A DNA stretch of 64,000 bases from contig OZ024743.1 of the NCBI GenBank assembly GCA_964016885.1, positions 62,434,001 through 62,498,000 on the forward strand. The letters are read 5' to 3'. Below the pieces are notes generated by a model. It ran no database searches. It had not been told where the DNA came from and saw only the letters and a list, made by a program, of their open reading frames with translations. How positions within the stretch are numbered: position 1 is the first letter of the stretch; every line of letters starts with the position of its first letter. This document shows, piece after piece, positions 7,493 to 64,000 of the stretch. The position numbers and the translations under genes were made by a program. Origin of the DNA: Eledone cirrhosa. Taxonomy: Eukaryota.

Positions 7493-7689
7493 GTATGTCT
7501 TCGCCTTTTTTCAATTTTTACTATCATTGACTCTTGTACCTAGTCGTAAATAACCAGAGTCTTGTACTTAGTTAAGTAACCAGTCTTGTACCTAGTCAAA
7601 ATAACCAGAGAGTCTTGTATTTTGTCTTAATAGTCTTTTATCTAATCTAAATAACTAGAGAATCTTGTACATAATCTCAATATAGTATT

Positions 7690-16600: not shown

Positions 16601-19600
16601 ATATATTGTACTTAGTCTAAACAACCATAGTATATATTGTACTTAGTCTATATAACCATAGTATATATTATACTTAGTCTAAACAACCATAATATATATT
16701 GTACTTAGTCTAAACAACCATAGTATATATATTGTACCTAGTCTAAACAACCATAGTATATATTGTACTTAGTCTAAACAACCATAGTATATATTGTACC
16801 TAATCTAAACAACCATAGTATATATTGTACCTAGTCTAAACAACCATAGTATATATTGTACTTAGTCTAAACAACCATAGTATATATTGTACCTCGTCTA
16901 AACAACCATAGTATATATTATACTTAGTCTAAACCACCATAGTATATATTGTACCTAGTCTAAACAACCATAGTATATATTGTACCTAGTCTAAACAACC
17001 ATAGTATATATTATACTTAGTCTAAACAACCATAGTATATATTGCTATCTTGTCTAAACAACCATAGTATATATTGCATCTTGTCTAAACAACCATAGTA
17101 TATATTGTACTTAGTCTAAACAACCATAGTATATATTGCATCTTGTCTAAACAACCATAGTATATATTATACTTAGTCTAAACAACCATAGTATATATTG
17201 TACCTAGTCTAAACAACCATAGTATATATTGCTATCTTGTCTAAACAACCATAGTATATATTGCATCTTGTCTAAACAACCATGGTATATATTATACTTA
17301 GTCTAAACAACCATAGTATATATTGTACCTAGTCTAAGCAACCATAGTATATATTGTACTTAGTCTAAACAACCATAGTATATATTGCATCTTGTCTAAA
17401 CAACCATAGTATATATTATACTTTGTCTAAACAACCATAGTTTATATTGTACCTAGTCTAAACAACCATAGTATATATTGTACTTAGTCTAAACAACCAT
17501 AGTATATATTGTACCTAGTCTAAACAACCATAGTATATATTGCTATCTTGTCTAAACAACCATAGTATATATTGTACTTAGTCTAAACAACCATAGTATA
17601 TATTGTACCTAGTCTAATCAACCATAGTATATATTATACTTAGTCTAAACAACCATAGTATATATTGCTATCTTGTCTAAACAACCATAGTATATATTGT
17701 ACCTAGTCTAAACAACCATAGTATATATTTTACCTAGTCTAAACAACCATAGTATATATTGCACTTAGTCTATATAACCATAGTATATATTATACTTAGT
17801 CTAAACAACCATAGTATATATTGTACCTAGTCTAAACAACCATAGTATATATTGTACCTAGTCTAAACAACCATAGTATATATTATACTTAGTCTAAACA
17901 GCCATAGTATATATTGTACTTAGTCTAAACAACCATAGTATATATTGTACCTAGTCTAAACAACCATAGTATATATTGTACTTAGTCTAAACAACCATAG
18001 TATATATTGTACCTAGTCTAAACAACCATAGTATATATTGTACTTAGTCTAAACAACCATAGTATATATTGTACCTAATCTAAACAACCATAGTATATAT
18101 TCTACCTAGTCTAAACAACCATAGTATATATTGTACTTAGTCTAAACAACCATAGTATATATTGTACCTAGTCTAAACAACCATAGTATATATTATACTT
18201 AGTCTAAACCACCATAGTATATATTGTACCTAGTCTAAACAACCATAGTATATATTGTACCTAGTCTAAACAACAATAGTATATATTGTACCTAGTCTAA
18301 ACAACCATAGTATATATTATACTTAGTCTAAACAACCATAGTATATATTGTACTTAGTCTAAACAACCATAGTATATATTGTACTTAATCTAAACAACCA
18401 TAGTATATATTGTACTTAGTCTAAACAACCATAGTATATATTGCATCTTGTCTAAACAACCATAGTATATATTGTACTTAGTCTAAACAGCCATAGTATA
18501 TATTGTACTTAGTCTAAACAACCATAGTATATATTGTACTTAGTCTAAACATGCATAGTATATATTGTACTTAGTCTAAACAACCATAGTATATATTGCT
18601 ATCTTGTCTAAACAACCGTAGTATATATTGCATCTTGTCTAAACAACCATAGTATATATTGTACCTAGTCTAAACAACCATCGTATATATTGTACTTAGT
18701 CTAAACAACCATAGTATATATTGTACCTAGTCTAAACAACCATAGTATATATTATACTTAGTCTAAACAACCATAGTATATATTGCATCTTGTCTAAACA
18801 ACCATAGTATATATTGTACTTAGTCTAAATAACCATAGTATATATTGTACCTAGTCTAAACAACCATAGTATATATTTACCTAGTCTAAACAACCATAGT
18901 ATATATTGTACCTAGTCTAAACAGCCATAGTATATATTGTACTTAGTCTAAACAACCATAGTATATATTGTACCTAGTCTAAACAACCATAGTATATATT
19001 ATATTTAGTCTAAACAACCATAGTATATATTGCATCTTGTCTAAACAACCATAGTATATATTGTACTTAGTCTAAACAACCATAGTATATATTGTACTTA
19101 GTCTATATAACCATAGTATATATTATACTTAGTCTAAACAACCATAGTATATATTGAATCTTGTCTAAACAACCATAGTATATATTGTACTTAGTCTAAA
19201 CAACCATAGTATATATTGTACCTAGTCTAAACAACCATAGTATATATTGTACTTAGTCTATACAACCATAGTATATATTGTACCTAATCTAAACAACCAT
19301 AGTATATATTGTACCTAGTCTAAACAACCATAGTATATATTGTACCTAGTCTAAACAACAATAGTATATATTGTACCTAGTCTAAACAACCATAGTATAT
19401 ATTATACTTAGTCTAAACAACCATAGTATATATTGCTATCTTGTCTAAACAACCATAGTATATATTGCATCTTGTCTAAACAACCATAGTATATATTGTA
19501 CTTAGTCTAAATAACCATAGTATATATTGTACCTAGTCTAAACAACCATAGTATATATTTACCTAGTCTAAACAACCATAGTATATATTGTACCTAGTCT

Positions 19601-20199
19601 AAACAGCCATAGTATATATTGTACTTAGTCTAAACAACCATAGTATATATTGTACCTAGTCTAAACAACCATAGTATATATTATATTTAGTCTAAACAAC
19701 CATAGTATATATTGCATCTTGTCTAAACAACCATAGTATATATTGTACTTAGTCTAAACAACCATAGTATATATTGTACTTAGTCTATATAACCGTAGTT
19801 TATATTATACTTAGTCTAAACAACCATAGTATATATTGAATCTTGTCTAAACAACCATAGTATATATTGTACTTAGTCTAAACAACCATAGTATATATTG
19901 TACCTAGTCTATACAACCATAGTATATATTGTACTTAGTCTATACAACCATAGTATATATTGTACCTAATCTAAACAACCATAGTATATATTGTACCTAG
20001 TCTAAACAACCATAGTATATATTGTACCTAGTCTAAACAACAATAGTATATATTGTACCTAGTCTAAACAACCATAGTATATATTATACTTAGTCTAAAC
20101 AACCATAGTATATATTGCTATCTTGTCTAAACAACCATAGTATATATTGCATCTTGTCTAAACAACCATAGTATATATTGTATTTAGTCTAAACAACCA
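7690..20199. repeat. Intronic 31-bp satellite array, about 12.5 kb (about 400 units)
   Basis: Unit GTACCTAGTCTAAACAACCATAGTATATATT with recurrent variants GTACTTAG, ATACTTAG, GCATCTTG, GCTATCTTG. Confidence 0.98.
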
Positions 20200-24783: not shown

Positions 24784-24918
24784 CATGTTCTGGAAGACGC
24801 TATGGTCCAAATTGCCGCTACATTTGTGAGTGTGACAACTATGGAGTGTGTGACCCAATGTCAGGTCACTGCAATTGTCCAGATGGTTGGATTGGTGCTA
24901 AATGTGAACTCACTACAG
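24784..24918 (+). CDS. Exon of MEGF-like protein, last EGF module
   Basis: ctacag|CA TGT TCT ... ACT ACA G|gtatta; 135 bp, phase 1-1; CSGRRYGPNCRYICECDNYGVCDPMSGHCNCPDGWIGAKCELTT. Confidence 0.92.
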
Positions 24919-24934
24919 GTATTATTCATTGCCT

Positions 24935-25520: not shown

Positions 25521-25540
25521 GTTTGAACAACACATCATTT

Positions 25541-27189
25541 GAATTAAGAGAGGTCTAACATACACATATACAGGGTGAATTGAGAGACGGCTAACATACA
25601 CATACACAGGTGAATTGAGAGAGGTCTAACATACACATACACAGGTGAATTGAGAGAGGTCTAACACACATACACAAGGTGAATTGAGAGAGGTCTAACA
25701 TACACATACACAGGTGAATTGAGAGAGGTCTAACATACACATACACAGGTGAATTGAGAGAGGTCTAACATACACATATACAGGTGAATTGAGAGAGGTC
25801 TAACATACACATATACAGGGTGAATTGAGAGAGGTCTAACATACACATACACAGGTGAATTGAGAGAGGTCTAACATACACATACACAGGTGAATTGAGA
25901 GAGGTCTAACATACACATATACAGGTGAATTGAGAGAGGTCTAACATACACATACACAGGTGAATTGAGAGAGGTCTAACATACACATATACAGGGTGAA
26001 TTGAGAGAGGTCTAACATACACATATACAGGTGAATTGAGAGAGGTCTAACATACACATATACAGGGTGAATTGAGAGAGGTCTAACATACACATATACA
26101 GGTGAATTGAGAGAGGTCTAACATACACATATACAGGGTGAATTGAGAGAGGTCTAACATACACATACACAGGTGAATTGAGAGAGGTCTAACACACATA
26201 CACAAGGTGAATTGAGAGAGGTCTAACATACACATACACAGGTGAATTGAGAGAGGTCTAACATACACATACACAGGTGAATTGAGAGAGGTCTAACATA
26301 CACATATACAGGTGAATTGAGAGAGGTCTAACATACACATATACAGGGTGAATTGAGAGAGGTCTAACATACACATACACAGGTGAATTGAGAGAGGTCT
26401 AACATACACATACACAGGTGAATTGAGAGAGGTCTAACATACACATATACAGGTGAATTGAGAGAGGTCTAACATACACATACACAGGTGAATTGAGAGA
26501 GGTCTAACATACACATACACAGGTGAATTGAGAGAGGTCTAACATACACATATACAGGTGAATTGAGAGAGGTCTAACATACACATATACAGGTGAATTG
26601 AGAGAGGTCTAACATACACATATACAGGGTGAATTGAGAGAGGTCTAACATACACATATACAGGTGAATTGAGAGAGGTCTAACATACACATACACAGGT
26701 GAATTGAGAGAGGTCTAACATACACATATACAGGGTGAATTGAGAGAGGTCTAACATACACATATACAGGTGAATTGAGAGAGGTCTAACATACACATAT
26801 ACAGGTGAATTGAGAGAGGTCTAACATACACATATACAGGTGAATTGAGAGAGGTCTAACATACACAGGTGAATTGAGAGAGGTCTAACATACATACACA
26901 GGGTGAATTGAGAGAGGTCTAACACACATACACAGGGTGAATTAAGAGAGGTCTAACATACACATATACAGGTGAATTAAGAGAGGTCTAACATACACAT
27001 ACACAGGTGAATTAAGAGAGGTCTAACATACACATTACACGGTGAATTGAGAGAGGTCTAACATACACATACACAGGGTGAATTGAGAGAGGTCTAACAT
27101 ACACATATACAGGGTGAATTGAGAGAGGTCTAACATACACATATACAGGGTGAATTGAGAGAGGTCTAACATACACATATACAGGGTGA
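25541..27189. repeat. Intronic 35/36-bp minisatellite (about 46 units)
   Basis: Unit GAATTGAGAGAGGTCTAACATACACATA(C/T)ACAG(G)GT. Confidence 0.97.
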
Positions 27190-34607: not shown

Positions 34608-34942
<335 letters not shown>

Positions 34943-34946
<4 letters not shown>

Positions 34947-35670
34947 GGAAAAAATGAAATTTCATAGTATGTATATACATACATACATGCACACATATAT
35001 ATATGTACATATGGGTTTGCCGAACATTTATTATAATGTTCGGTTTATTTGTAAACAAACAGCCCGAATTAAGCCGTACAGTGTTCGGCAACCATCGTTG
35101 CCTTTTTGTTCAACACTGACAAAGGAACGATGTACTAGTTTCTAGCTTATTAGCTGTCATCAGTACCGTATACCTTCCTGTCAGTCGATTGAACGTTTAA
35201 AGTATATACTTTCCTTGTGCGTATTAAGGGCTGAGCAGCCTAATTTGCATATCGAGTGAGTTAGTCGGCCGGGCGTACCGAAAACGATAAATGGAAAAAA
35301 TGAAATTTCATTTCTCACTCTTAGTACGGCTGATACTTAAATATAAGATGTATACGTACATGCATATATGTATACAGATGTACAGTAGTATGTATATACA
35401 TACATGCACACATATATATATATGGACGTATGGGTTTGCCGAAGATTTATTATAATGTTCGGTTTGTTTGTAAACAAACAGCCCGAATTAAGCCGTACAG
35501 TGTTCGGCAACCATTGTTGTCCTTTGGTATATACTTTCAAACGTTCAATCGACTGACAGGAAGGTATACGGTGCTGATGACATCTAATAAGCTAGAAACT
35601 AGTTCATCGTTCCTTTGTCAGTGTTGAACAAAAGGGCAACGATGGTTGCTGAACACTGTACGGCTTAATT
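34943..35670. mobile_element. Hammerhead-containing repeat family A (candidate retrozyme), fold-back copy
   Basis: Minus-oriented part 34943-35526 (period about 419 bp, hammerhead 35126-35170) joined to an inverted plus-oriented part 35527-35670 (hammerhead 35568-35610); homologous to the 60469-64000 array; flanked by (TA)n. Confidence 0.8.
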
Positions 35671-36460: not shown

Positions 36461-37531
36461 ATATTGTTATATTTGGGGAGGGTCATATTTGCGTAATATT
36501 GCCAGAATTAATAACAGAACACACTCACTGTTTGGTTGGTTTTCGCTTCTCGCTGTCTTTTATATATATATATCTGCGATCTAACTTACTCGGTCCTCAA
36601 TGTTGCCATTGACTGACCGGCGGTCAAAAATAATACAGATACAATATAGACAAACACATATATATATAGTTTACATAAATCTTTCGTTGCACATCTGCAA
36701 CATCGTCAGTGGTGTTATATTCATTGTTCCTCCTGTTGTGTTGTATGTCTACGCCATTTTTTTTGTTCAGTCTGTCTATATATTTATTTATTTATTTGCT
36801 TGTTTGTTTATCTTATTTTTTTTTTTTTTTTTTTTTTTTGTCTTCTTTGCGCATGCGTTTGCGTGTGTGTATAGTGTTATGTGTGATGTGTGACTAGTGT
36901 GTATAGTGTTGTGTCTGCTGGGTGACTAGTGTGTGTTTATGTGCTTGTGTATGTATTTATTTATCTTATTTTATTTAATTTAATTTACTTATTTATTTAT
37001 ACTTCTCTTAGGTCAGTGTTGTTTGTTTGGGTGTTGTTGTTGTTCCACTCATTCTTTCTGTTTAGCTTTGGTCTTCTAATTTCTATTTCACTGGCCTCTC
37101 TGATTTGCCTATCTGCTGGGTCATTCCTATGTTTAGATATTATTCTAATTTCTATGTTGTCTATGTTACCGTCATGATGTTGTCTAGCATGTTCGTATAG
37201 TACTGACCCGTTTTTTCGTCCTTTTAGTTCCCCCCAGTGTTGGTCTATCCTTTCACCTATGCTACGAGCTGTCTCACCTATGTATGTTGTTGTCGTGTTT
37301 CTGCAAGTACCCTCTGTACATCTTATGCTATAGACTACGTTTCTAGTTTTACAGTTTATCCGGGGGTTCACCTTACATATGATACATTTCCTATTGGTAC
37401 AGTGGGTTTTCTTAAAAGGGTAGGTTTTGCTGATCAGGGATTTTATGGTGGTTCCTGGCTTTTCTAACACCTTTATTTTTAAGTGGGTCTTTCTCAGGGC
37501 CTTTCTACACTGGTTAGCTAATTTCCCTCCA
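36461..37531 (-). repeat. Inverted duplication of the 3' 1071 bp of the PLE (inverted pLTR)
   Basis: Reverse complement of 39806-40876 (paired coordinates sum to 77337); only one substitution noticed (LEKP vs VEKP codon). Confidence 0.95.
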
Positions 37532-37541
37532 TGGCAGGAAA

Positions 37542-40340
37542 GTGAGAAATAGTGATAATAGTAATAATACTAGCGATAGACAGAACAACAACAACCACAA
37601 TAATAATAATAATAGAAACGTTAACCACAGACACAGCAACAGTGACCACAGTAGTAATAACGGTAACAATACGAACAACAACAACAACAATAACCACAGT
37701 GGTAATAATGGAAATAGTACATGTAGCAACATCAACAAAAACAAGAAACATAATAATAGTAACAACCACAATGGTAGAAATAGCAGTAACAACAACAATA
37801 ACGGTGAAGTAAACAACAATACATCTAGCAATCATAACAATAATAATATTAATGCTAAGGATAGAAACAACAACAACCACCATGATAACAATAATAGCAA
37901 CACACACAACTATGACGATAGAAATAACGACAACCCCTTAGAGAAACTATTTTTCAACCCAGCTGACAAAACATATAAGATGGGTAATATCTATCCTACG
38001 AGGTTACCCTTTAATAAAAGAGTTTGCATACCACAACAAATAGATGACGAGACGGAGGCACAGTTCACCATAGCTAGAAATAAGATTAGACAAGTAGTAG
38101 ACAGGTACACTATGAGACAGAGCAGACCAGAGGCCCAACAACTTGGGATAAAACCTGTAGAAGGCTTGGTTAGCCTCAAGCAGCGCACAAGGGATGGTGA
38201 GGTAGTGTGTCTACCCACAGATAAGTCTGGTAGGATGTCAATAGATAGCATGCCGAACTACATCGAGGCAATGCAACCCCACATCACCAACACGAGCGAA
38301 GTTGCACAACTAACACACGATGGGAGAGAAAAAATCCTCAACGCTCACATGATGATGTGGACTGACATCCTAAAGCCAAGCAGACGCACTGCCAACAACT
38401 TCCAGGCGTCTAACAATGGCATACCACCCTTGTATGGGCTCCGCAAAGACCACAAGACAGTCGACGACCCGACAATAGGACCACCAACAAGACCTGTATG
38501 CGGAGCTAATATAGCTAGCAACTACAGGATCTCCTACTTCCTCTCAATGGTTATACGCCCCATAATCAAGATGTCCCCAGATGTATGTGAAAGTACAGAG
38601 GACCTCCTCAGCAGAATCAGTGAGTGCAACAAAAACAGGAGCCTATCCAACTGCATAATAGGCAGCATGGATGTGGTGTCACTGTACCCATCCATTAACA
38701 TTGATTTTGCTGTGAAAAGATGTGTGGAGATGATCATTGAGAGTGAGGTGGAGTTCTGCGACGTCGACACAGACGAACTGGGCCTCCTACTTAGACTTAC
38801 CTACGACACTGACTACCTAGACAGCCATGACCTTAGATGTTTCTGCCCTAGTAGACCTATAAGAGGTAGACCCCCCACCATAACCTCAATGGCTAAAAAG
38901 ACTCCCATAGGAAGGTGGATTGGGTGGACCAAAGCTATACGGACCCCCCAAAACACTGATCAGGTAAGAAAAATGGTCGCACATGCAATAGGGGCTAGTA
39001 TCAAAACTACCCTAAAGGGCCACATATTTAAGTTCAATGAGAAAATCTACACCCAAAATGAGGGAGCAGCCATCGGCGTCAGCATAGCTGGCGATGTTGC
39101 CAACCTTTTCATGGTATGGTGGGAAAGGAGACTTAAAGATCTCCTTAATGAAAGCTCCATAGACCTCATCATGTACTCTCGTTATGTAGACGATATCAAT
39201 ATAGTTATAAGAACACCCCCACTAGAGAGCACTAACAAGTTTGATTTAGAACGTAGCACGATGGAAAGCATCCAGCAGATAGCTAATTCCATACACCAGA
39301 GTATAACTGTAACTATAGACTTCCCTTCCAAACACCCTAACAATAGACTACCTGTATTAGACACAGAACTCTGGATTAACACTATAGACGAGAGAGCCCA
39401 AATTCTCCACTCACACTATGCTAAACCCATGGCCTCCAAATACCTGATACTCAAAAACTCAGCAATGTCCAGTAGTGCTAAGTTTAATATTCTGATCGCA
39501 GATTTGGTACGAGTGATGAAGAATGTGTCCAGCATGTGCGACCCAACAGAAATGGAAGGACACATCCAACACTTCATCAACCGCATGCAGTTCTCTGGCT
39601 ACAACCAAAGAGACAGAGTCAGAGTATACGAAGGAGCCATGGAAAAGTATAAGACCCTCATAGAACTGGACATGAAAGGAATTTGCCCACTATACAGGAG
39701 CAAATCATGGAATAGCTTAGATAGGGCTAGACATAAGATAGGGAAGGCCACATCATGGTACGACAACCAGAGATATCAGAGTGTCATGTTTGTGGACGCC
39801 ACCCCTGGAGGGAAATTAGCTAACCAGTGTAGAAAGGCCCTGAGAAAGACCCACTTAAAAATAAAGGTGGTAGAAAAGCCAGGAACCACCATAAAATCCC
39901 TGATCAGCAAAACCTACCCTTTTAAGAAAACCCACTGTACCAATAGGAAATGTATCATATGTAAGGTGAACCCCCGGATAAACTGTAAAACTAGAAACGT
40001 AGTCTATAGCATAAGATGTACAGAGGGTACTTGCAGAAACACGACAACAACATACATAGGTGAGACAGCTCGTAGCATAGGTGAAAGGATAGACCAACAC
40101 TGGGGGGAACTAAAAGGACGAAAAAACGGGTCAGTACTATACGAACATGCTAGACAACATCATGACGGTAACATAGACAACATAGAAATTAGAATAATAT
40201 CTAAACATAGGAATGACCCAGCAGATAGGCAAATCAGAGAGGCCAGTGAAATAGAAATTAGAAGACCAAAGCTAAACAGAAAGAATGAGTGGAACAACAA
40301 CAACACCCAAACAAACAACACTGACCTAAGAGAAGTATAA
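37542..40340 (+). CDS. Penelope-like retroelement ORF: reverse transcriptase plus C-terminal GIY-YIG endonuclease (5'-truncated)
   Basis: PTDKSG, LYGLRKDHK, TRPV, SMDVVSLYPSI, GAAIG, SRYVDD, LPVLD; Cys-rich linker CTNRKCIIC...C; VVYSIRC...YIGETARSIGERIDQH; EASEI...LNRKNEW; Asn-rich N-terminal segment. Confidence 0.93.
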   Translation: MRNSDNSNNTSDRQNNNNHNNNNNRNVNHRHSNSDHSSNNGNNTNNNNNNNHSGNNGNSTCSNINKNKKHNNSNNHNGRNSSNNNNNGEVNNNTSSNHNNNNINAKDRNNNNHHDNNNSNTHNYDDRNNDNPLEKLFFNPADKTYKMGNIYPTRLPFNKRVCIPQQIDDETEAQFTIARNKIRQVVDRYTMRQSRPEAQQLGIKPVEGLVSLKQRTRDGEVVCLPTDKSGRMSIDSMPNYIEAMQPHITNTSEVAQLTHDGREKILNAHMMMWTDILKPSRRTANNFQASNNGIPPLYGLRKDHKTVDDPTIGPPTRPVCGANIASNYRISYFLSMVIRPIIKMSPDVCESTEDLLSRISECNKNRSLSNCIIGSMDVVSLYPSINIDFAVKRCVEMIIESEVEFCDVDTDELGLLLRLTYDTDYLDSHDLRCFCPSRPIRGRPPTITSMAKKTPIGRWIGWTKAIRTPQNTDQVRKMVAHAIGASIKTTLKGHIFKFNEKIYTQNEGAAIGVSIAGDVANLFMVWWERRLKDLLNESSIDLIMYSRYVDDINIVIRTPPLESTNKFDLERSTMESIQQIANSIHQSITVTIDFPSKHPNNRLPVLDTELWINTIDERAQILHSHYAKPMASKYLILKNSAMSSSAKFNILIADLVRVMKNVSSMCDPTEMEGHIQHFINRMQFSGYNQRDRVRVYEGAMEKYKTLIELDMKGICPLYRSKSWNSLDRARHKIGKATSWYDNQRYQSVMFVDATPGGKLANQCRKALRKTHLKIKVVEKPGTTIKSLISKTYPFKKTHCTNRKCIICKVNPRINCKTRNVVYSIRCTEGTCRNTTTTYIGETARSIGERIDQHWGELKGRKNGSVLYEHARQHHDGNIDNIEIRIISKHRNDPADRQIREASEIEIRRPKLNRKNEWNNNNTQTNNTDLREV

Positions 40341-40891
40341 ATAAATAAGTAAATTAAATTAAATAAAATAAGATAAATAAATACATACACAAGCACATAA
40401 ACACACACTAGTCACCCAGCAGACACAACACTATACACACTAGTCACACATCACACATAACACTATACACACACGCAAACGCATGCGCAAAGAAGACAAA
40501 AAAAAAAAAAAAAAAAAAAAATAAGATAAACAAACAAGCAAATAAATAAATAAATATATAGACAGACTGAACAAAAAAAATGGCGTAGACATACAACACA
40601 ACAGGAGGAACAATGAATATAACACCACTGACGATGTTGCAGATGTGCAACGAAAGATTTATGTAAACTATATATATATGTGTTTGTCTATATTGTATCT
40701 GTATTATTTTTGACCGCCGGTCAGTCAATGGCAACATTGAGGACCGAGTAAGTTAGATCGCAGATATATATATATAAAAGACAGCGAGAAGCGAAAACCA
40801 ACCAAACAGTGAGTGTGTTCTGTTATTAATTCTGGCAATATTACGCAAATATGACCCTCCCCAAATATAACAATATCTGTTTCGACACACG

Positions 40892-40944
<53 letters not shown>

Positions 40945-41711
40945 TTAGTTGTTATACATATACATATATATACATATGCATATATATACATATACATATA
41001 TATATGGTGGCTGCCAACTCGTTTTCGAGTACGGCCACTACTCTATATCCATGCAGGAGAACCCCTATCGATGCGCTGAACGAGTGTGGCTTTTTAGTCC
41101 AGCCAGCGACTTGAAAACTCTGGTACAAACACTACACTTGTGACAATTATTGACACATAGTGCTGGGCCCATGGTACCAAGTGATGACAAGTGCAGAGAG
41201 ATCTCCAGATATAAAGCAATGCCTGTGCCGTGAAGCTTTTATAGTGAGCAAAGGCACTGCACAAAGCCAGTCCCACTCTCTTAACCAAGATGATATTTAC
41301 CAAAAAGAAGAACAAGTCAACATCATTGGATACCATCAGGGTTGCAAGTGTTATATCAGAGTTTTCCTTCTCCTAGAATTCTGCCTTGACAAAGGCTAAG
41401 GGGTCATCTCTCCCGGTGATTTTGGATGGCCATTGACTCTTATGAGCTCCTTTGCCCTTTGACAGGTTTTGTTTTTAGTTCTGCAGGATGTCCAAAGTCA
41501 CCCTCCTCACCAAGAAACCTTGGTGGGGTTCCCAGTTTAGTCGCCAACGACCCGACCATGAGACAGGTTGTACTGGGATACATGTTACCTGTAGCACCAA
41601 CTGGTGACTTGACATATATACATATATATATACATACATATACATATATATACATATACATATATATATACATATATATATACATATATATACATATACA
41701 TATATATATAC

Positions 41712-41754
<43 letters not shown>

Positions 41755-41764
41755 CGTATACATA

Positions 41765-41809
<45 letters not shown>

Positions 41810-41846
41810 ATATATATATATACATATATAAACATATATATATAGT

Positions 41847-41929
<83 letters not shown>

Positions 41930-41931
<2 letters not shown>

Positions 41932-44900
41932 AAATAAAATAAATAAGTCAAATGTTTAAAATTTGGCTTCGTTTATTACTGCTATATATATTTCGGTGAC
42001 AGCCATCTTTGGCTATGACCTCTTCAGGCAGTCCGAATTAGTCTGGTAGAGACGAGTACACACGTTGTTGAGGAGTATAACTTTGTTAATACTCTGATAT
42101 GCCCAGTTCCTGGTTGTGTTGTTGTTTCATTGAGGAACTGGAATCATGAATTTAAACAAACGAATTTCAGCGTCCGAGGACATATCCTCCTCTCATTGGT
42201 CAGTTGTGAGAATATTCCTCAGTCAAAAGTCTATAGAAATTCATTCTGAGGCAAGGCAATCTGTAGTGGTTTTTCCTTGTTATTGCTAAGTACATCTGAC
42301 CTCTACTCTTATGTTGGTGGTGTTGATGTTAGAATCAGCTCAAAAAATGATAAAATGGTAGAAGGAATAAGGTGGTGGAGGAACCAAATAAATAATCAAA
42401 TAAAATGTGTGTGTTATACCCAATCTCAATGTTATAAAAATTTGTAAGTTCACTCCTCCCATTGGTCAGTTTTGAGAGCATTCCTAAGTCAAAAGTCTAT
42501 AGGAATTCTTTCTGAGGTGAGGTTCCCTGTAGTATTTGCTTTTGATATTGTTAAGTACATCTGACCTCTACCCTTAATTTGGTAGTGTTGTTGGTGTTGT
42601 GGTCAGCCCATGTTTTGCTGTTGCTGACATTTATAAGTATCTGTGTGTGTTTCTTCATCCATCCTGCCACCATCTCTCGTGGTGGTGGTGGGAGGTGGGT
42701 CTGCCATGTTTATGAAGAAATAGAAGGCAATAAGATGAAGAAAACAGAAAATAAATAATGAATAGAAAATAAATGAAAAATTAATTAATGAAAAATGACA
42801 AATGACAAATGTAAAATGAAATGGAAATTGAAAAATGTAAAATGAGATATGAAAATGAAAAGTGGAAAATAGAAGTGAAGATTCAAATAAAGTAAAATGT
42901 GTGTGTTCTATAACCAATCTCAAGGTCAGAAAGATGTTGGATAAAGTAGTAGGAGGAACAAGATGGTAAAAGAATAAAACGAAATAAGATAATTAAATAA
43001 AAAGTGTGTGTTATAACCATTCTCAACTTAAATATAAGGCAATAAGGTGAAGAAAACAAAACAAATGAAAAATCAATGAAAACTCAATGAAAAATCAAGT
43101 AAAATAAAATGTGTGTGTGTTAGAAAGATATTGGCCAAATTAGAAAAGCTGTGTCAGAATCAATCTCTAGGCTATCATGGTGTCAGCTCAGCCGGGGTGG
43201 GTCCCTATGGCTTGAGGGGAGTTCCCAACCTATGGTGTTGTTACTGCCCATATAGCTTGAGGGAGGTCTGGCCGAGAGGTGTCTACATGTTCCGGAGAAG
43301 TCCCTATAGCTTGAGAGGTGTTCACATCTCAGTGGGTTGCTACTGTCTATATAGCTTGAGGAAGGTCCCGGCCCTGAGGTGTCTGCATGTCCCGAAGAAA
43401 TCGGTTCTGAGGTTTATCAGGCGGCTTCCACCTCTTAGCATCTCGAGGGTCTCGTTCAGACATAGTTTGCATATTCCGGATCCCCCTTTATCGGGTGGTA
43501 CCTTCCTGATTATGGACCAGGCCAGAGAGTACGGGGTCCTGTCCAGCTTCAGCTTCCAGATCAGGTCGGAGAGAGCCGTACTTTTCCTTTTGGCCACCTT
43601 GTTGAAGGAATGGCGATGGTTATACCAGCGGTCTTTAAAGCTCGTTGATGTGGCTCCTATGTAGAGGTGTTCGGAGTTGGGGGTTTTAACCCTACATCCG
43701 TATATTAGGTTCTTCTTAAGGCATTCATTATAGAGAGTGGTCGACCTCTCCGTGCCTAGTGTGGGGTTCCCGTTACGTGTTGCCTGGTGGTCTTCCCCCG
43801 GGTACGGTGGGGGGTCCCCGGGTCTGTTTGAGTTACTTGGGTGTGCACTGGATCGCCCCCTCCCTCCTTCCACATGGTTCTGATGGGTGCTTATATTGCC
43901 ATTTTCTGGTTGTGTGTGTTTTTTAAGCCTACTCCTGTTGATGCTAGCTATGTGTTGGGCCAGATTTCTTGTGGTGGAATACGAGAGCTTCACAGTGTGT
44001 CTGTTGAAGATCTTGTGGTATCTATGGTCTTTCGGGAAGCATTTATCAAGTGCTCCAAAGAATGATCGGGCCAACCTTTTCTTTAGGGCCGCTGAGTAGG
44101 GTGGGTTGTACCACGTGATTTTTCTGCGTCTACTCCTATATGGGTGGGTTGGGGGCGTCGTGAATTGTTGGAGAGTTGTTGGGTTGCTAGTGGTTGCCGT
44201 ATTGTTGTTTCCCCTTTGGGCGCTATGCGTTTTGCTATCTCCACGGCCTGAATCTGTGGGGTGGTCGTTGCCCGCGCTGGGAGATCCACTGTAGGGTGGT
44301 CCCCCGTTAACCCCCCCCCCCCCCCCTCACGTGTCCTGCGGTTGGGGTCGTCGGGCCCGGGGTGGTTATCATCACCCCTGAGACTGCTACTCATATTGGG
44401 TTTCATCTCATGGCTAAGGGTACTCGTCACCATCGCCCGTGTGGTGGTGTCGGGCTCATGGTGCTTATTTGTTTCTGTTCTGCCTGTATTGTTAGGGTTC
44501 GCCTCTTCCCGGACAACGCGGGTGTGTGTGTCCGTTGGGCCATCCCCATCCGGGCGTTTCGGACTATATGTTATATTTTGGCCATGTACCGCCTTATTTA
44601 GAGCTGTGTTGTAATATTCCGCGTTGTTATCAAATATTTCCTTATTAGCGGACAGGCTGGAGATCCTGTCCGAGACACTCTTCACCACGGCCTTGGTTAT
44701 GGATCTAGGGTGGTTTGACTTGGCGTTAACATACACAAGTTTCTCGTTGGGCTTGTGGTAGGGGTAGTATTGCTTGGTGTTCAGGTTTAGAGTGGTGTCT
44801 AGGAAGTTAACTACCTTTCTATTCGGGTCTAATTCGATACTGAGCCCCTGGTTCTTAAAGAAATGGCGAATACGCCTCTTCATTCCCTCCAACCTAGTGG

Positions 44901-45390
44901 TGTTGTGGTCATATACTGTGAAGAGAGCGTCGTCACGATATAATCCGCCGCCCAGGCAGTAGATTTCATCTTTTATCTGCTTCAGCAGGAAGAGCCCAAC
45001 CAGGTCCGTTACCTGTGCTGAGTCGCTGGAGCCCATGGTGATGTCAAAGTTATTTGGCCAATCACTCCTGGCCCAAAGGTCTCCTTCGAAATGGATTATG
45101 GTCTTTCTTGCGGCGTGGATGATGCTCACCTCCTCTCGGGTTAGGTCCGTTTTGGACATCGCTAAGAATAGGGCCTTATTGAGTACTATGGGTGAGATTG
45201 AGGAGTAGTAGCCTACAATATCCAGTTAGATAAAGCTGGTCTTACTTTTCTCATGTAGTATCTTAAACCATTCTATTACCTCTCCGATGCATGACCATTG
45301 CTGTAATCTAGTTTTTTTTCCCGAAGCTTGGGCAAAATCCTATCTAGTATTCTTTTACTGACGATCCCTAGGTCAGATCTGGAGGGGGCA
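41930..45390 (-). mobile_element. 5'-truncated Penelope-like element, probably Naiad-like, with frameshifts
   Basis: ORFs 44083-45159 (FDITMGSSDSAQVTDLVG, GGLYRDD, VNFLD, SNHP) and 43340-44074 (KIFNRHTVKLSYS, LIYGC...LYIGATS, CKLCLNE, CRH); long 3' pLTR ends at (TA)n. Confidence 0.88.
41978..42032 (-). ncRNA. Minimal type I hammerhead ribozyme in PLE pLTR
   Basis: Minus strand: ACTGC CTGAAGA GGTCATAGCC AAAGAT GGCTGTCACC GAAA TATATA TA GCAGT; stem I ACTGC/GCAGT, palindromic stem III. Confidence 0.85.
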
Positions 45391-46225
45391 CCGAAAACGA
45401 TAAACGGAAAAAATGAAACGAACTGTACCCCGGCCAATTAACTCACTCGATATGCAAATTAGGCTGCTCAGCCGTTAATATGCATAAGGAAAGTATATAC
45501 TTTCAGACGTTCAACCATCTGACAGGAAGGTATACGTTGCTGACGATAGGTAATAAGCTTGAAACTAGTACAGCGTTCCTTTGTCAGTGTTGAACAAATG
45601 AGCAACGATGGTTGCTAGACACTGTACGGCTTAATTCGGGATGTGTGTTTACAAATACACCGAGCATTATAATAAATGTTCGGTGAATCCATACGTACAT
45701 ATATATATATATGTGTGCATGTATTATATATATATATATACATACTACTGTACGTCTGTATACATATATGTATGTACGTATACATACTTATATTTAAGTA
45801 ACAGCCGTACTAATAGTGATAAATGAAATTTCGTTTCATTTTTTCCGTTTATCGTTTTCGGTACCCCGGCCGATTAACTCACTCGCTATGCAAATTAGGG
45901 TGCTCAGCCGTTAATATGCATAAGGAAAGTATATACTTTCAGACGTTCAACCATCTGACAGGAAGGTATACGTCGCTGACGATAGCTAATAAGCTTGAAA
46001 CTAGTACAGCGTTCCTTTGTCAGTGTTGAACAAATGAGCAACGATGGTTGCTAGACACTGTACGGCTTAATTCGGGATGTGTGTTTACAAATACACCGAG
46101 CATTATAATAAATGTTCGGTGAATCCATACGTACATATATATATGTGTGTGCATGTATTATATATATATATATACATACTACTGTACGTCTCTATACATA
46201 TATGTATGTACGTATACATACTTAT
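45390..46225 (+). mobile_element. Repeat family A (candidate retrozyme), about two tandem 436-bp units
   Basis: Hammerheads at 45534-45576 and 45970-46012 (consensus ACGTYG CTGACGA TAGSTAATAAGCTT GAAA CTAG TA CAGCGT); octamer ATGCAAAT at 45452 and 45888. Confidence 0.85.
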
Positions 46226-46242
46226 ATATATATATATATATA

Positions 46243-48727
46243 CTAGCAGAAGTACCCGGCGTTGCCCGGGTGTAAGTCGACCTTTGGTCTGTTAGAATGT
46301 GTGAAAGTTACTTCCCGCGCATCACAGGTTCAAAACTTCGAACTTCAATGAAAAAAAATAGGTTAGTAGACACAGGTGTGTAATTTATTAATTGTAGTTA
46401 CACAGTGTATCGTTGAAATTGTTCTCTGCACGACTGACGGAAGTCAAAATCGCTTGATATTGAATGTTCAGTTAATTTAAAGCAGGGTGAAAATATCGAT
46501 TACTTTCAAGGTTTTTTTTTTTTCTTACAATTTTTGCGCTCACATGTGCAGAAGAAGAATTAAAAGGGCCTTTATCTTAACCGCGGCATAATGGCGAGTC
46601 TTTTGTGACAGTTTTCAAGAATATAGGACGTTCCTGTAAAAGGTTTTCCCATGTGTAACTTTGCTTGTTTTTTTGCGCAAAGTCGAGCCCCGCTTCAGTT
46701 TTATTGATTTTTTACATCAATGCGTGATCTCGGAAGTAGATTTGAGTAGCTAAAAACCTGTCCCGGTAAATTTGCTATAGGTGAAAAAAAGTTGATCAAA
46801 ATTGTATCTAGGGTTATTGCCCTTTGCCACAGCCTCAAGCCTCGTCTGACGGGATGTTGGTGATTCCTCCGTCAGCGCTTGTTGGCGACGAAGGCGAACA
46901 TCAGCAAGCCTTGTCGTACGTGATGTTGGTGACTCAACCAGCCGGGAAAGACGTCTATCAGCGAGTCGAGATTCGCGCTCAGCAGGTGTTTCCTAGAGAA
47001 AATTAATTAATTCTACTGGTTAGCTAAGCCAATGGCAGTGTCAATAGTAAATGAGAAAAGTCTAACATGAACAAAAGGGAATCAAGGTAAGACAATAAAT
47101 TTAATATAACTACGATTAGAATGTTGTAGTTGCTTAAAAGTGGTGACAGTTAGGATAAACGCAGTACTTGCTAACATTAAGGGAGAATATTGCATAAAGG
47201 ATTAATCAATTGTGAATGAACTCATACCTGAGAACGCCTAATTCGTTGTCTCAAAGCAGTAGCTGTACCTTTTTTGGAGGTAAGTCTTGAACGTTTCTGT
47301 GTGGGCATAACGACGTGTAACGAAGCTGTTAGGTTAGAGAGAGGTGATTAAATACAGAGAGAGATGACACCAGATTCGTTAGCATGGTTACTGGTGAATG
47401 GGAATGTTTGGAAATATGATTACAATAACTTACCGAATTTTCCGGTTTATAAATTGCACTTAAAATAATTAAATTTAATTAAAAAAACAGCTCTGCGCTT
47501 TATACTCCGGTGAGTCTTATGTATAAATAATACAATGGTAATCAATCACGGCTCTAACAGAAGTAATAGATCTAGACTAAAAGTAAAGAAGATAGCATTT
47601 TCCTGGTTGGCCTTACACACCGTTGCGCGGACCTGATTTTAAATGATACGCCTTATAGAGCGGAAAATATCTATTGGAAAAGAATACGAATTCATGACCA
47701 AGGTGTGACAAAATAGGCGTCTATACAGCGCCTGAAACAAACTTGTCCAAAACCCTAGGATTTTTCTCGTTAAGTATCCACCCAAAAGGAATCGTTTTTT
47801 AGTTACAAAAAATAACCGAAGTGTATAGTAGCTATATTTCTGACATATCATGCCAAAAAGAACAATATATTCAAAAAATGTTCTAAAGTACATTCAATCT
47901 CTCTTTTTGACCGATATCTTAATAAGCAAGTTATCGATTTTTTATTGGCTGTCAGTGTCTATCTGCATGCAGGTGTGCACGTGTGCGCAATTAATTGCAA
48001 ATACGCTCATAACATTTAGTCGTAAGCAGAAAAAAAAATGCCATTAGAGGTGGGCTAATAATGAAGACACAAACCCTGGTGAACTTACGTTTAAACACCC
48101 GAAAAGTTACTCACTTCCTGTGCAAAAGACTGTATTATAAATTAAGTAATTTTTTAGAATCTTTTGTTTAAAAAAGGAAAACATTGGTACGGAAGTAACA
48201 TTTTTTACAACTTTGTATGTGTACAATACAACTTGGTCAACGTATTTTTTTTTTCAAAAAGCATGATTATTTAAGACTGTTTGAAAATTTACTCACAGCT
48301 TTTAGCATCACAAAAGACACCATTAAATTTGGTTCCCTTTTCAGATAGGGATAATCATGTATTTCCACTTGAGTAAGGTGGAATATAAAAAGATAAACTC
48401 TTTAATGGTCGGTCGTTTACTGAGACAGCTGGGAAGACATGCAGCTGGCCGTCCAATCAATAACGCACGTCCTTATATGGGCATATGAAATTTATTTTTA
48501 TTGCGCCAGATGTTCTTGTGTTCGAATTCACATAAAATTTCATTGGAATCGAAAAGCATTCTGTCATAGGGCCCGATTATAGATTTTTCGAAAATTTCAA
48601 GTAGCCTATTCCACTCTACGCGTTGAGTTTTATATATGTGTGAGGTTTCATGAAAATTGGATGAACGGTGTAGCATGCAAGTTGGGAACACCAAACAATG
48701 TCCATCTTCCCTTTCTCTATATATAGA
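46243..48727 (-). mobile_element. Non-autonomous Helitron, about 2.5 kb
   Basis: Minus strand starts TCTATATATAGAGAAAGG and ends with hairpin CCCGGGCAACGCCGGG then TACTTCTGCTAG|T; inserted in TA repeats; no long ORF. Confidence 0.8.
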
Positions 48728-49206: not shown

Positions 49207-51463
<2,257 letters not shown>

Positions 51464-60425: not shown

Positions 60426-60468
60426 TATATATGTATATATATACATATATATATATGTATATATATAC

Positions 60469-61002
60469 ATGTAAGTATGTATGTATACGTACATACATAT
60501 ATGTATACAGACGTACAGTAGCATGCATATATATATATATATATATATACATACATATACATATATACATACAGGTACACATACATATATGCACACATCA
60601 GTTTAGCGGACGCTTATTATAACGCCGCTTTGTTCGTTTGTAAACAAACTGAACAGCCTGAATTTATGCCATACGGTGTTAAGGCAACCACGTCACCTTT
60701 TTTTTCAACACTGACACAGGAACGATGTACTAGTTTCAAGCTTGTTAGCTATCATCAGCACCGTTTACCCATCTGCCAGATAGTTGAACGTTCGAAAGTA
60801 TATACTTTCCTTATGAAAATTAACGGCTGAGCAGCCTAATTTGCATATTGAGTGAGTTAAATCGGTCAGGCATACCGAAAACGATAAGTTGAAAAAAATG
60901 AAAACGAAATTTCATTTCTCACTCTTAGTATGGCACTTACTTAAATGTAAGTATGTATGTATACGTACATACATATATGTATACAGACGTACAGTAGCAT
61001 GC

Positions 61003-61033
<31 letters not shown>

Positions 61034-63862
61034 CATATACATATATACATACAGGTACACATACATATATGCACACATCAGTTTAGCGGACGCTTATTAT
61101 AACGCCGCTTTGTTCGTTTGTAAACAAACTGAACAGCCTGAATTTATGCCATACGGTGTTAAGGCAACCACGTCACCTTTTTTTTCAACACTGACACAGG
61201 AACGATGTACTAGTTTCAAGCTTGTTAGCTATCATCAGCACCGTTTACCCATCTGCCAGATAGTTGAACGTTCGAAAGTATATACTTTCCTTATGAAAAT
61301 TAACGGCTGAGCAGCCTAATTTGCATATTGAGTGAGTTAAATCGGTCAGGCATACCGAAAACGATAAGTTGAAAAAAATGAAAACGAAATTTCATTTCTC
61401 ACTCTTAGTATGGCACTTACTTAAATGTAAGTATGTATGTATACGTACATACATATATGTATACAGACGTACAGTAGCATGCATATATATATATATATAT
61501 ATATACATACATATACATATATACATACAGGTACACATACATATATGCACACATCAGTTTAGCGGACGCTTATTATAACGCCGCTTTGTTCGTTTGTAAA
61601 CAAACTGAACAGCCTGAATTTATGCCATACGGTGTTAAGGCAACCACGTCACCTTTTTTTTCAACACTGACACAGGAACGATGTACTAGTTTCAAGCTTG
61701 TTAGCTATCATCAGCACCGTTTACCCATCTGCCAGATAGTTGAACGTTCGAAAGTATATACTTTCCTTATGAAAATTAACGGCTGAGCAGCCTAATTTGC
61801 ATATTGAGTGAGTTAAATCGGTCAGGCATACCGAAAACGATAAGTTGAAAAAAATGAAAACGAAATTTCATTTCTCACTCTTAGTATGGCACTTACTTAA
61901 ATGTAAGTATGTATGTATACGTACATACATATATGTATACAGACGTACAGTAGCATGCATATATATATATATATATATATACATACATATACATATATAC
62001 ATACAGGTACACATACATATATGCACACATCAGTTTAGCGGACGCTTATTATAACGCCGCTTTGTTCGTTTGTAAACAAACTGAACAGCCTGAATTTATG
62101 CCATACGGTGTTAAGGCAACCACGTCACCTTTTTTTTCAACACTGACACAGGAACGATGTACTAGTTTCAAGCTTGTTAGCTATCATCAGCACCGTTTAC
62201 CCATCTGCCAGATAGTTGAACGTTCGAAAGTATATACTTTCCTTATGAAAATTAACGGCTGAGCAGCCTAATTTGCATATTGAGTGAGTTTAATCGGTCA
62301 GGCATACCGAAAACGATAAGTTGAAAAAAATGAAAACGAAATTTCATTTCTCACTCTTAGTATGGCACTTACTTAAATGTAAGTATGTATGTATACGTAC
62401 ATACATATATGTATACAGACGTACAGTAGCATGCATATATATATATATATATATATACATACATATACATATATACATACAGGTACACATACATATATGC
62501 ACACATCAGTTTAGCGGACGCTTATTATAACGCCGCTTTGTTCGTTTGTAAACAAACTGAACAGCCTGAATTTATGCCATACGGTGTTAAGGCAACCACG
62601 TCACCTTTTTTTTTCAACACTGACACAGGAACGATGTACTAGTTTCAAGCTTGTTAGCTATCATCAGCACCGTTTACCCATCTGCCAGATAGTTGAACGT
62701 TCGAAAGTATATACTTTCCTTATGAAAATTAACGGCTGAGCAGCCTAATTTGCATATTGAGTGAGTTAAATCGGTCAGGCATACCGAAAACGATAAGTTG
62801 AAAAAAATGAAAACGAAATTTCATTTCTCACTCTTAGTATGGCACTTACTTAAATGTAAGTATGTATGTATACGTACATACATATATGTATACAGACGTA
62901 CAGTAGCATGCATATATATATATATATATATATACATACATATACATATATACATACAGGTACACATACATATATGCACACATCAGTTTAGCGGACGCTT
63001 ATTATAACGCCGCTTTGTTCGTTTGTAAACAAACTGAACAGCCTGAATTTATGCCATACGGTGTTAAGGCAACCACGTCACCTTTTTTTTCAACACTGAC
63101 ACAGGAACGATGTACTAGTTTCAAGCTTGTTAGCTATCATCAGCACCGTTTACCCATCTGCCAGATAGTTGAACGTTCGAAAGTATATACTTTCCTTATG
63201 AAAATTAACGGCTGAGCAGCCTAATTTGCATATTGAGTGAGTTAAATCGGTCAGGCATACCGAAAACGATAAGTTGAAAAAAATGAAAACGAAATTTCAT
63301 TTCTCACTCTTAGTATGGCACTTACTTAAATGTAAGTATGTATGTATACGTACATACATATATGTATACAGACGTACAGTAGCATGCATATATATATATA
63401 TATATATATATACATACATATACATATATACATACAGGTACACATACATATATGCACACATCAGTTTAGCGGACGCTTATTATAACGCCGCTTTGTTCGT
63501 TTGTAAACAAACTGAACAGCCTGAATTTATGCCATACGGTGTTAAGGCAACCACGTCACCTTTTTTTTCAACACTGACACAGGAACGATGTACTAGTTTC
63601 AAGCTTGTTAGCTATCATCAGCACCGTTTACCCATCTGCCAGATAGTTGAACGTTCGAAAGTATATACTTTCCTTATGAAAATTAACGGCTGAGCAGCCT
63701 AATTTGCATATTGAGTGAGTTAAATCGGTCAGGCATACCGAAAACGATAAGTTGAAAAAAATGAAAACGAAATTTCATTTCTCACTCTTAGTATGGCACT
63801 TACTTAAATGTAAGTATGTATGTATACGTACATACATATATGTATACAGACGTACAGTAGCA

Positions 63863-63902
<40 letters not shown>

Positions 63903-64000
63903 CATATACATATATACATACAGGTACACATACATATATGCACACATCAGTTTAGCGGACGCTTATTATAACGCCGCTTTGTTCGTTTGTAAACAAACTG
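60469..64000 (-). mobile_element. Tandem array of repeat family A (476-480-bp units, more than 7 copies, runs off the window), one minimal hammerhead per unit (candidate non-LTR retrozyme)
   Basis: Minus strand AACGGTG CTGATGA T AGCT AACA AGCT T GAAA CTAG TA CATCGTT at 60721, 61201, 61677, 62153, 62630, 63106, 63584; units are nearly identical apart from microsatellite and poly-T length. Confidence 0.92.

What the first reader, a model, noticed from the sequence alone, without database searches (positions are those of the whole stretch)
45340..46225. Retrozyme dimer fused without spacer to the truncated 5' end of a PLE
Seen: the minus-strand PLE stops within its RT (APSRSDLG codons, about 45390) and is joined directly to family A. 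First comes a 33-bp inverted piece (45390-45422, reverse complement of about 45830-45862), then about two plus-strand monomers ending in (TA)n. The composite has both 3' ends outward in TA tracts. Stem I changes G-U to U-G relative to the 60-kb array (ACGTTG/CAGCGT vs ACGGTG/CATCGT), preserving pairing. Inference: a template switch of PLE RT between its own RNA and retrozyme RNA. An independent twin-priming-like insertion with deletion is an alternative.
Basis: partly seen in the sequence, partly recalled or inferred. Interest (0 to 1): 0.78.

Follow-up and report, generated by a model that had tools for sequence, protein, structure and literature searches.

The report
Retrozyme landed on older Penelope element
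A hammerhead-ribozyme repeat is fused directly to a broken Penelope-type jumping gene, but the same repeat is fused just as directly to many unrelated neighbours, so it likely landed later on an existing copy rather than being copied together with it.

Summary
A 5'-truncated Hydra-like Penelope-like element (PLE, minus strand, 41927-45389) joins, through a 4-5-nt microhomology, a 33-bp inverted piece and 1.86 monomers of a hammerhead retrozyme (family A). Both 3' ends lie in (TA)n, and the U-G/G-U stem I switch is real. The template-switch reading is possible but not favoured. Of 119 classified family A insertions, 71 are head-to-head with themselves, 20 keep TA at the 5' end, 24 are fused without spacer to non-PLE DNA (including half a MITE-like palindrome and SINE-like repeats in both orientations) and 4 to a PLE. 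Excluding the window, that is 3 of 27 against about 5% PLE in flanks (P 0.04-0.18). No other PLE copy had family A at its truncation (0 of 33). The retrozyme looks younger (7 substitutions in 368 bp between monomers, about 1% per copy) than the PLE (72 of 3447, about 2%; P 0.02-0.05). Best reading: a later twin-priming-type insertion that lost target DNA. No empty-site allele could be read. By-product: family A inserts with PLE hallmarks, supporting the published idea that PLEs mobilise retrozymes.

The parts
41614..41926 (.). (TA)n tract at the PLE 3' end
41927..45389 (-). 5'-truncated, decayed Hydra-like PLE (RT, linker, C-terminal GIY-YIG, long 3' UTR with pLTR); lacks about 560 bp of ORF start, the upstream pLTR and the ~110-nt terminal tail
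   Evidence: motifs compared
41976..42033 (-). type I hammerhead motif in the PLE pLTR (CTGAAGA...GAAA, TATATA helix III); activity untested
43340..44326 (-). linker and GIY-YIG reading frame
   Evidence: Pfam GIY-YIG E 0.003, below the curated cut-off
44083..45225 (-). RT reading frame (LYRDD); stops and frameshifts upstream to 45389
   Evidence: no Pfam hit for this frame
45385..45389 (+). junction microhomology GGGGC (5 nt if the template had the G variant, seen in 33 of 133 copies; 4 nt with the A variant carried by both window monomers); intact PLE copies continue TATTA here
45390..45422 (-). 33-bp inverted family A piece (monomer positions 34-66)
45423..45796 (+). family A monomer 1, 5'-truncated (positions 63-434)
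45534..45576 (+). hammerhead motif 1 (one G.G mismatch in stem II)
45797..46230 (+). family A monomer 2, full length, ending in TA
45970..46012 (+). hammerhead motif 2 (one C.A mismatch in stem I)
46231..46242 (.). remnant of the (TA)n target at the family A 3' end
46243..48720 (.). younger 2.5-kb interspersed repeat inserted in the same TA tract (14-17 substitutions in about 1260 bp to 5 relatives); the Helentron/DINE-like label is recalled, not tested

Best explanation
The retrozyme dimer likely arrived after the PLE, in a separate insertion likely made by a PLE enzyme acting in trans. Shown: the anatomy, the truncation, the microhomology, the genome-wide junction classes and the divergences. 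Inferred: a GIY-YIG nick in the (TA)n tract to the right primed a cDNA on multimeric or circular family A RNA that ran 1.86 monomers leftward. The other DNA end, cut or resected back into the resident PLE at GGGGC|TATTA, annealed to G/ACCCC on the same RNA just ahead of the first cDNA and copied 33 nt (twin priming). The two cDNA ends were joined and the DNA between the two breaks (any TA plus PLE 5' sequence) was lost. A third, younger repeat then entered the remaining TA. Which PLE family supplied the enzyme is not shown.
For: Family A 5' ends are fused without spacer to non-PLE DNA in 24 of 119 classified insertions (classes assigned by eye). Partners include half of a 115-bp palindromic MITE-like element (L307; 104 of 115 self-complementary), SINE-like repeats cut in both orientations (L005, L114, L241 against L232, L249) and apparently unique DNA, which points to loss of target DNA. 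PLE partners are 3 of 27 excluding the window, with PLE covering 9745 of 181278 flank bases (5.4%): P 0.18, or 0.036 if only head-to-head orientation counts. The same head-to-head arrangement with TA still between exists (L234, Hydra-like PLE). 0 of 33 single-arm PLE 5' junctions join family A. Ages: monomers differ at 7 of 368 sites (terminal target base excluded) and 6 of 616 sites are private; the PLE has 72 private substitutions in 3447 sites, 16 nonsynonymous to 9 synonymous in the coding parts tested; one-sided P 0.023-0.048. The private measure tracks an internal clock in 16 arm pairs (median ratio 1.03). The inverted piece ends at position 66 and the main arm starts at 63-65, the pattern of L1 twin priming. 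TA follows the junction in intact copies (TA frequency 6%).
Against: All 3 other PLE fusions (L008, L012, L084) are head-to-head, none tandem. In L084 the two parts look the same age (Neptune-like part 96-97% to relatives; dimer 9 of 258). The age calibration is noisy: ratios run 0.35-2.59, 4 of 16 are at least 1.5, pooled 1.98 against 1.65, so a PLE age near 1% is not excluded. Tandem monomers may be homogenised. The 5.4% background comes from a small library partly built from the same loci. Twin priming with the A variant needs a terminal C.A mismatch. No empty-site or PLE-only allele was seen. Loci were the best BLAST matches, not a random sample.
Confidence: 0.5

Rival explanations
1. One event with two RNAs. 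A PLE cDNA primed in the left TA tract ran 3.46 kb, jumped onto family A RNA at GGGGC, copied 33 nt and was joined to a family A cDNA primed from the right side of the same break.
For: Continuous antisense-to-antisense strand with microhomology. Both 3' ends lie outward in TA, as in the 71 of 119 self head-to-head insertions and in inverted PLE pairs. Three more head-to-head PLE fusions; in L012 both parts are cut at their hammerhead cores. A Penelope protein was modelled as a dimer and inserts on both strands in vitro (PMC11167929).
Against: Age gap (P 0.02-0.05). Partners come from different PLE clades (2 Hydra-like of this family, 2 Neptune-like) and are outnumbered 24 to 4 by non-PLE partners. 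0 of 33 PLE truncations carry family A. Family A has no sequence similarity to this PLE outside TA runs.
Confidence: 0.3
2. Neighbours first, deletion later. An ordinary head-to-head family A pair sat in a TA tract next to the PLE; a later microhomology-mediated deletion removed most of the left arm, the TA and some PLE, leaving 33 bp.
For: Head-to-head pairs are the commonest form (71 of 119). The TA-separated precursor exists (L234). The lost part would be the palindromic part of the arm. 25 of 197 arms end away from the usual 3' sites. Compatible with the age gap.
Against: Needs a second event; the deletion end would coincide by chance with a TA-rich site in the PLE.
Confidence: 0.15
3. Assembly chimera or unrelated DNA rearrangement.
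For: No contig piece listed from 4 public runs bridges 45389 (output cut, and those runs lack this copy's private bases, so they say little).
Against: The junction has the anatomy of many other junctions in this genome; both sides carry ordinary private mutations.
Confidence: 0.05

Closest known systems
Metazoan non-LTR retrozymes (Cervera and de la Pena 2020, PMC7229834; passages read)
   Same: Short AT-rich non-coding tandem repeats, dimers to multimers, one type I hammerhead per monomer; PLEs named as the likely mobiliser.
   Different: Monomer 434-476 bp with an internal TA-rich part; stem II opens with U.U in 221 of 224 matches; minimal CTAG helix III. That paper's main text has no occurrence of 'inverted' or 'target site'. 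Circular RNA and cleavage not tested here.
Li, Clavereau, Pollet 2026 preprint 10.64898/2026.07.22.740005 (parts 1-3 of 5 read; supplements not seen)
   Same: Argues that retrozymes are non-autonomous PLE derivatives that use PLE machinery.
   Different: Rests on co-occurrence and pLTR similarity; the parts read describe no junctions or chimeras. Family A shows no similarity to the adjacent PLE's pLTR.
Hydra clade PLEs (Craig et al. 2021, PMC8557442; section 11 and passages read)
   Same: C-terminal GIY-YIG, DKT, CxCX5C, no CCHH, hammerhead, (TA)n target, 5' truncation, inverted 5' copy, optional tail.
   Different: About 4 kb rather than under 3 kb; RWK not seen; the inverted partner here is another element.
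L1 twin priming and target-site deletion (Kojima 2010, PMC2912911; Zumalave et al. 2024, 10.1101/2024.08.27.596794; passages read)
   Same: 5' inverted piece primed internally by microhomology, ending next to the start of the main arm with a small duplication.
   Different: No poly(A); (TA)n target; non-autonomous ribozyme RNA; the left primer lies inside another retroelement. Search (twin priming + Penelope + retrotransposon) listed 3 papers, none on PLE twin priming by title or abstract.

Membership tests
non-LTR retrozyme (family A) | type I hammerhead core in each monomer | tested here: met
   CTGANGA...GAAA.CTAG.TA with stem I in 224 matches; pairs counted. No Rfam hit at gathering score and the hammerhead fold is not the minimum-energy fold of the two window motifs.
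non-LTR retrozyme (family A) | short non-coding tandem repeats, dimers to multimers, dispersed | tested here: met
non-LTR retrozyme (family A) | self-cleavage | not testable with these tools
   needs in vitro transcription
non-LTR retrozyme (family A) | accumulates as circular RNA | not testable with these tools
   no RNA holder listed; not evidence either way
Hydra clade PLE | RT with DKT motif and C-terminal GIY-YIG without CCHH | tested here: met
   HADKTNNLY in sister copies, LIYGCRVKTPNSEHLYIG in the window
Hydra clade PLE | CxCX5C linker motif | tested here: met
   CNCRNPESC in sister L037; not intact in the window frame
Hydra clade PLE | hammerhead in pLTR and (TA)n target | tested here: met
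Hydra clade PLE | RWK motif; length under 3 kb | tested here: not met
   RWK not seen in the longest frames; near-full copy L251 exceeds 4 kb. Hence 'Hydra-like'.
Hydra clade PLE | phylogenetic placement with reference Hydra RTs | not tested
   no reference sequences fetched
template-switch chimera (one insertion, two RNAs) | both parts same age | tested here: inconclusive
   about 1% against about 2%, P 0.02-0.05, noisy calibration; leans to not met
template-switch chimera (one insertion, two RNAs) | junction class enriched over chance | tested here: inconclusive
   3 of 27 against 2.7-5.4% background, P 0.036-0.18; 0 of 33 from the PLE side
template-switch chimera (one insertion, two RNAs) | both parts absent together from the empty allele | not testable with these tools
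   flanks are repeats; contigs too short
twin-priming 5' inversion | inverted piece abuts start of main arm; microhomology at outer junction | tested here: met
   positions 34-66 against 63-65 onward; GGGGC/GGGG. No microhomology at the inner junction.

The most novel reading that the evidence does not exclude
PLE reverse transcriptase builds one insertion from two different RNAs. The window, L012 and L084 would be single events in which a PLE cDNA and a retrozyme cDNA, primed from opposite sides of one (TA)n break, were joined head-to-head. That would be physical proof that PLEs mobilise retrozymes and would show that the long-unexplained inverted PLE structures come from two templates, not from self-priming.
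Probability: 0.3. Interest if true: 0.7.

Novelty: new member of a known kind. Interest (0 to 1): 0.35.

Why it matters
The single junction is most likely an ordinary nested insertion in a (TA)n hotspot and does not by itself prove PLE-retrozyme template switching. The survey around it is the more useful result. Family A inserts with PLE hallmarks: 71 of 119 insertions are head-to-head, 3' ends fall at two preferred sites about 60 nt apart like the optional PLE tail (92 and 74 of 197 arms), and the target is (TA)n. This is insertion-level support for PLE mobilisation, which the papers read argue from co-occurrence and pLTR similarity. The genome has thousands of PLE candidates and very young retrozyme arrays, so it suits a full test of one-RNA against two-RNA models.

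Tried and rejected
Rfam at gathering score found nothing in the window. Energy folding did not single out the hammerhead. A natural chimeric query did not enrich for chimeras; it returned PLE 3' ends only. No closer PLE sister than 95-96% was found in four searches (40 candidates scored each). Sequencing runs: best share 0.37, no RNA holder listed. Contigs of four runs were short repeat pieces, mostly carried the family base at this copy's private sites and did not bridge the junction, so no allele call. Raw reads of other individuals were not seen. A search for a second haplotype failed because the right flank is another young repeat. In-place inversion of positions 34-66 was rejected: it leaves 2-4 extra bases. 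Family A as a pLTR derivative of the adjacent PLE or of the Neptune-like family was rejected: only TA-run matches. Arm-against-arm comparison could not separate one RNA from two (derived variants shared 0.14 for opposite arms, 0.37 for tandem, 0.05 between loci). The first age calibration had duplicate loci and was redone. An automatic walk beyond 3' TA tracts found 2 of 135 PLE neighbours but missed cases visible by eye, so it was not used. The structure string was mis-registered and corrected. Earlier scan notes: nothing found.

Full report
Setting. The window lies in a 3.0-Gb animal assembly at G000:C4:62434001-62498000 and is rich in (TA)n tracts and repeats. Positions 'q' below count along monomer 2 of family A from 45797.

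Observation. All stated features are in the sequence. The minus-strand element ends in the APSRSDLG codons at 45389, and 27 of 29 other copies continue into further RT sequence. 45390-45422 is the exact reverse complement of 45830-45862 (q34-66). The plus-strand arm starts at q63-65 and runs 1.86 monomers to 46230. The PLE 3' end meets (TA)n at 41927 without the ~110-nt tail of sister copies. The right TA run is short because a younger 2.5-kb repeat sits in it. At the outer junction GGGGC can be read from either side if the template had G at q67 (33 of 133 copies), or GGGG if it had A, as both window monomers do. Stem I pair 4 is U-G in 126 and G-U in 77 of 224 motif matches.

The two parts. 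The PLE has DKT, CxCX5C (in a sister copy), a C-terminal GIY-YIG without CCHH, a hammerhead and a (TA)n target, as described for the Hydra clade. It is longer than described and RWK was not seen, and no tree was built, so I call it Hydra-like. Family A is a non-coding 434-476-bp repeat with one type I hammerhead motif per monomer. It fits the metazoan retrozyme description at sequence level; cleavage and circles are untested, Rfam does not detect it and the motif is not the lowest-energy fold of the two window copies. It shares nothing with the adjacent PLE outside TA runs.

Junction survey. From four family A searches and three fetches I held 125 family A loci after removing duplicates; 6 were arrays or broken chains whose 5' end could not be read and were dropped. 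Of 119, classed by eye, 71 are head-to-head with another family A arm, 20 have TA or another microsatellite at the 5' end, 24 are fused to non-PLE DNA and 4 to a PLE, the window included. Non-PLE partners include half of a 115-bp palindrome flanked by TA (L307; MITE-like by shape), repeats with tRNA-like boxes (label recalled) cut in both orientations, and DNA with no match among the loci. A half palindrome or the 5' half of a SINE is most simply a neighbour that lost DNA. The three other PLE fusions are L012 (same family, pLTR only), L084 and L008 (Neptune-like), all head-to-head. PLE covers 5.4% of flank bases (small library, partly from the same loci). Three of 27 gives P 0.18, or 0.036 if orientation is required. 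L234 shows the same arrangement with TA kept. From the PLE side, 33 single-arm 5' junctions were read: 17 microsatellite, 3 self-rearranged, 13 other DNA, 0 family A. In the 116 other PLE loci annotated (overlapping, some the same copy), family A was never at a PLE 5' truncation; where adjacent it lay at the PLE 3' end (L054, L143). The 29 further loci were not annotated this way. All samples are best matches, not random.

Ages. The monomers differ at 7 of 368 sites, about 0.95% per copy; 6 of 616 sites are private against the nearest relatives. The PLE has 72 substitutions in 3447 sites not shared with its ten nearest sisters (2.1%), with 16 nonsynonymous to 9 synonymous where tested. One-sided P is 0.023, 0.042 with one junction base counted, and 0.048 after a 10% deflation. 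Against the clock of inverted arms in 16 pairs, this measure has median ratio 1.03 but range 0.35-2.59, so equal age is disfavoured, not excluded. The element to the right differs from five relatives at 14-17 of about 1260 sites. The order PLE, family A, right-hand repeat fits serial use of one TA tract. Against this, L084's two parts look equal in age, though both families peak at similar divergence.

Mechanism. The inverted piece ends where the main arm starts, with a microhomology at its outer end, which is the pattern of L1 twin priming. The left primer was PLE antisense DNA ending in GGGGC. It was either genomic DNA of a resident copy or a nascent PLE cDNA. The survey, the ages and the TATTA that follows in intact copies (TA frequency 6%) favour resident DNA (0.5) over a nascent cDNA (0.3). 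A later deletion from a normal head-to-head pair (0.15) and an artefact (0.05) remain. Mobilisation of family A by a PLE enzyme is inferred from its head-to-head pairs, its two preferred 3' ends (92 arms run into the TA-rich part, 74 end at q45-63, 6 at q100-137, 25 elsewhere, of 197) and its (TA)n target, which match PLE features. The supplying family is unknown.

Alleles. No allele could be read. The best public runs hold 35-37% of sampled words. Their contigs are short, mostly carry the family base at this copy's private sites and do not bridge the junction in the part shown. Both flanks are repeats.

Literature. Read: the 2026 preprint, parts 1-3 of 5; Craig 2021, section 11 and passages; PMC11167929, part 2 of 4; passages of PMC7229834, PMC3846280, PMC2912911 and 10.1101/2024.08.27.596794. 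No supplements were read; those of the preprint and of PMC7229834 could describe retrozyme junctions. Six searches (retrozyme, Penelope, hammerhead; Penelope-like, template switch, inverted, chimeric, microhomology; Penelope-like, internal initiation, reverse transcription; twin priming, Penelope, retrotransposon; hammerhead ribozyme, a guessed taxon, Penelope; retrozyme, inverted, target site deletion, non-autonomous Penelope, head-to-head) listed no paper whose title or abstract start describes PLE-retrozyme chimeras. The library lacks most subscription journals.

Verdict. A real junction between known kinds of element, most likely a nested insertion in a TA hotspot. Interest 0.35. The two-RNA reading keeps a probability of 0.3 and would merit 0.7.

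Noticed in passing
window 60426-64000 and G000:C4:62498000-62503750 (L313): The 60-kb array is half of a ~9-kb head-to-head insertion: minus-strand then plus-strand runs of about 10 nearly identical 476-bp monomers each, both ending in TA. Fits rolling copying of a circle from both sides; very young. Decayed Hydra-like sequence lies on both flanks.
   Followed up: partly
window 36500-40880: Neptune-like PLE with a 940-aa open frame and an inverted 5'-truncated arm; arms differ at 1 of 1021 sites, so very recent. It has a hammerhead-like core near its 3' end.
   Followed up: partly
window 49207-51239: About 3.6 tandem copies of a ~562-bp unit, 99% identical, TA-flanked, dispersed elsewhere as tandem and inverted arrays. 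Behaves like family A, but a simple pattern found no hammerhead core.
   Followed up: partly
L281:2598-3023, L079:173-594, L300:2670-2897: A very young ~240-bp TA-flanked family forming near-perfect palindromes, with a short and a ~35-nt longer end; shares TTCCGTTTA near its end with family A. Possibly another non-autonomous PLE.
   Followed up: no
window ~42147; L193, L200, L202, L204, L208, L210, L213, L214, L216, L220: Many short copies of the PLE match only its last 218 bp plus tail, often as inverted pairs. May be a derived non-autonomous subfamily or a junction hotspot.
   Followed up: no
family A hammerhead, e.g. window 45547 and 45560: The pair next to the core in stem II is U.U in 221 of 224 matches, where canonical hammerheads have G-C (recalled); helix III is the palindrome CTAG, suggesting cleavage as a dimer.
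   Followed up: partly
window 34890-35670: An older family A subfamily, also head-to-head with both ends in TA.
   Followed up: no
L009:400-640: A family A arm ends at q187 without TA and runs in the same direction into a Hydra-like PLE of another family, the same strand geometry as the window's outer junction.
   Followed up: partly
L123:2323 onward; L153:1128 leftward: PLE 5' ends fused to other repeats, one through a 15-nt fold-back and one to LINE-like coding sequence (label recalled).
   Followed up: no
window 7681-20199 and 25540-27185: Satellite arrays of 31 bp (403 copies) and 35 bp (47 copies); an EGF-like exon lies near 24800-24930.
   Followed up: no
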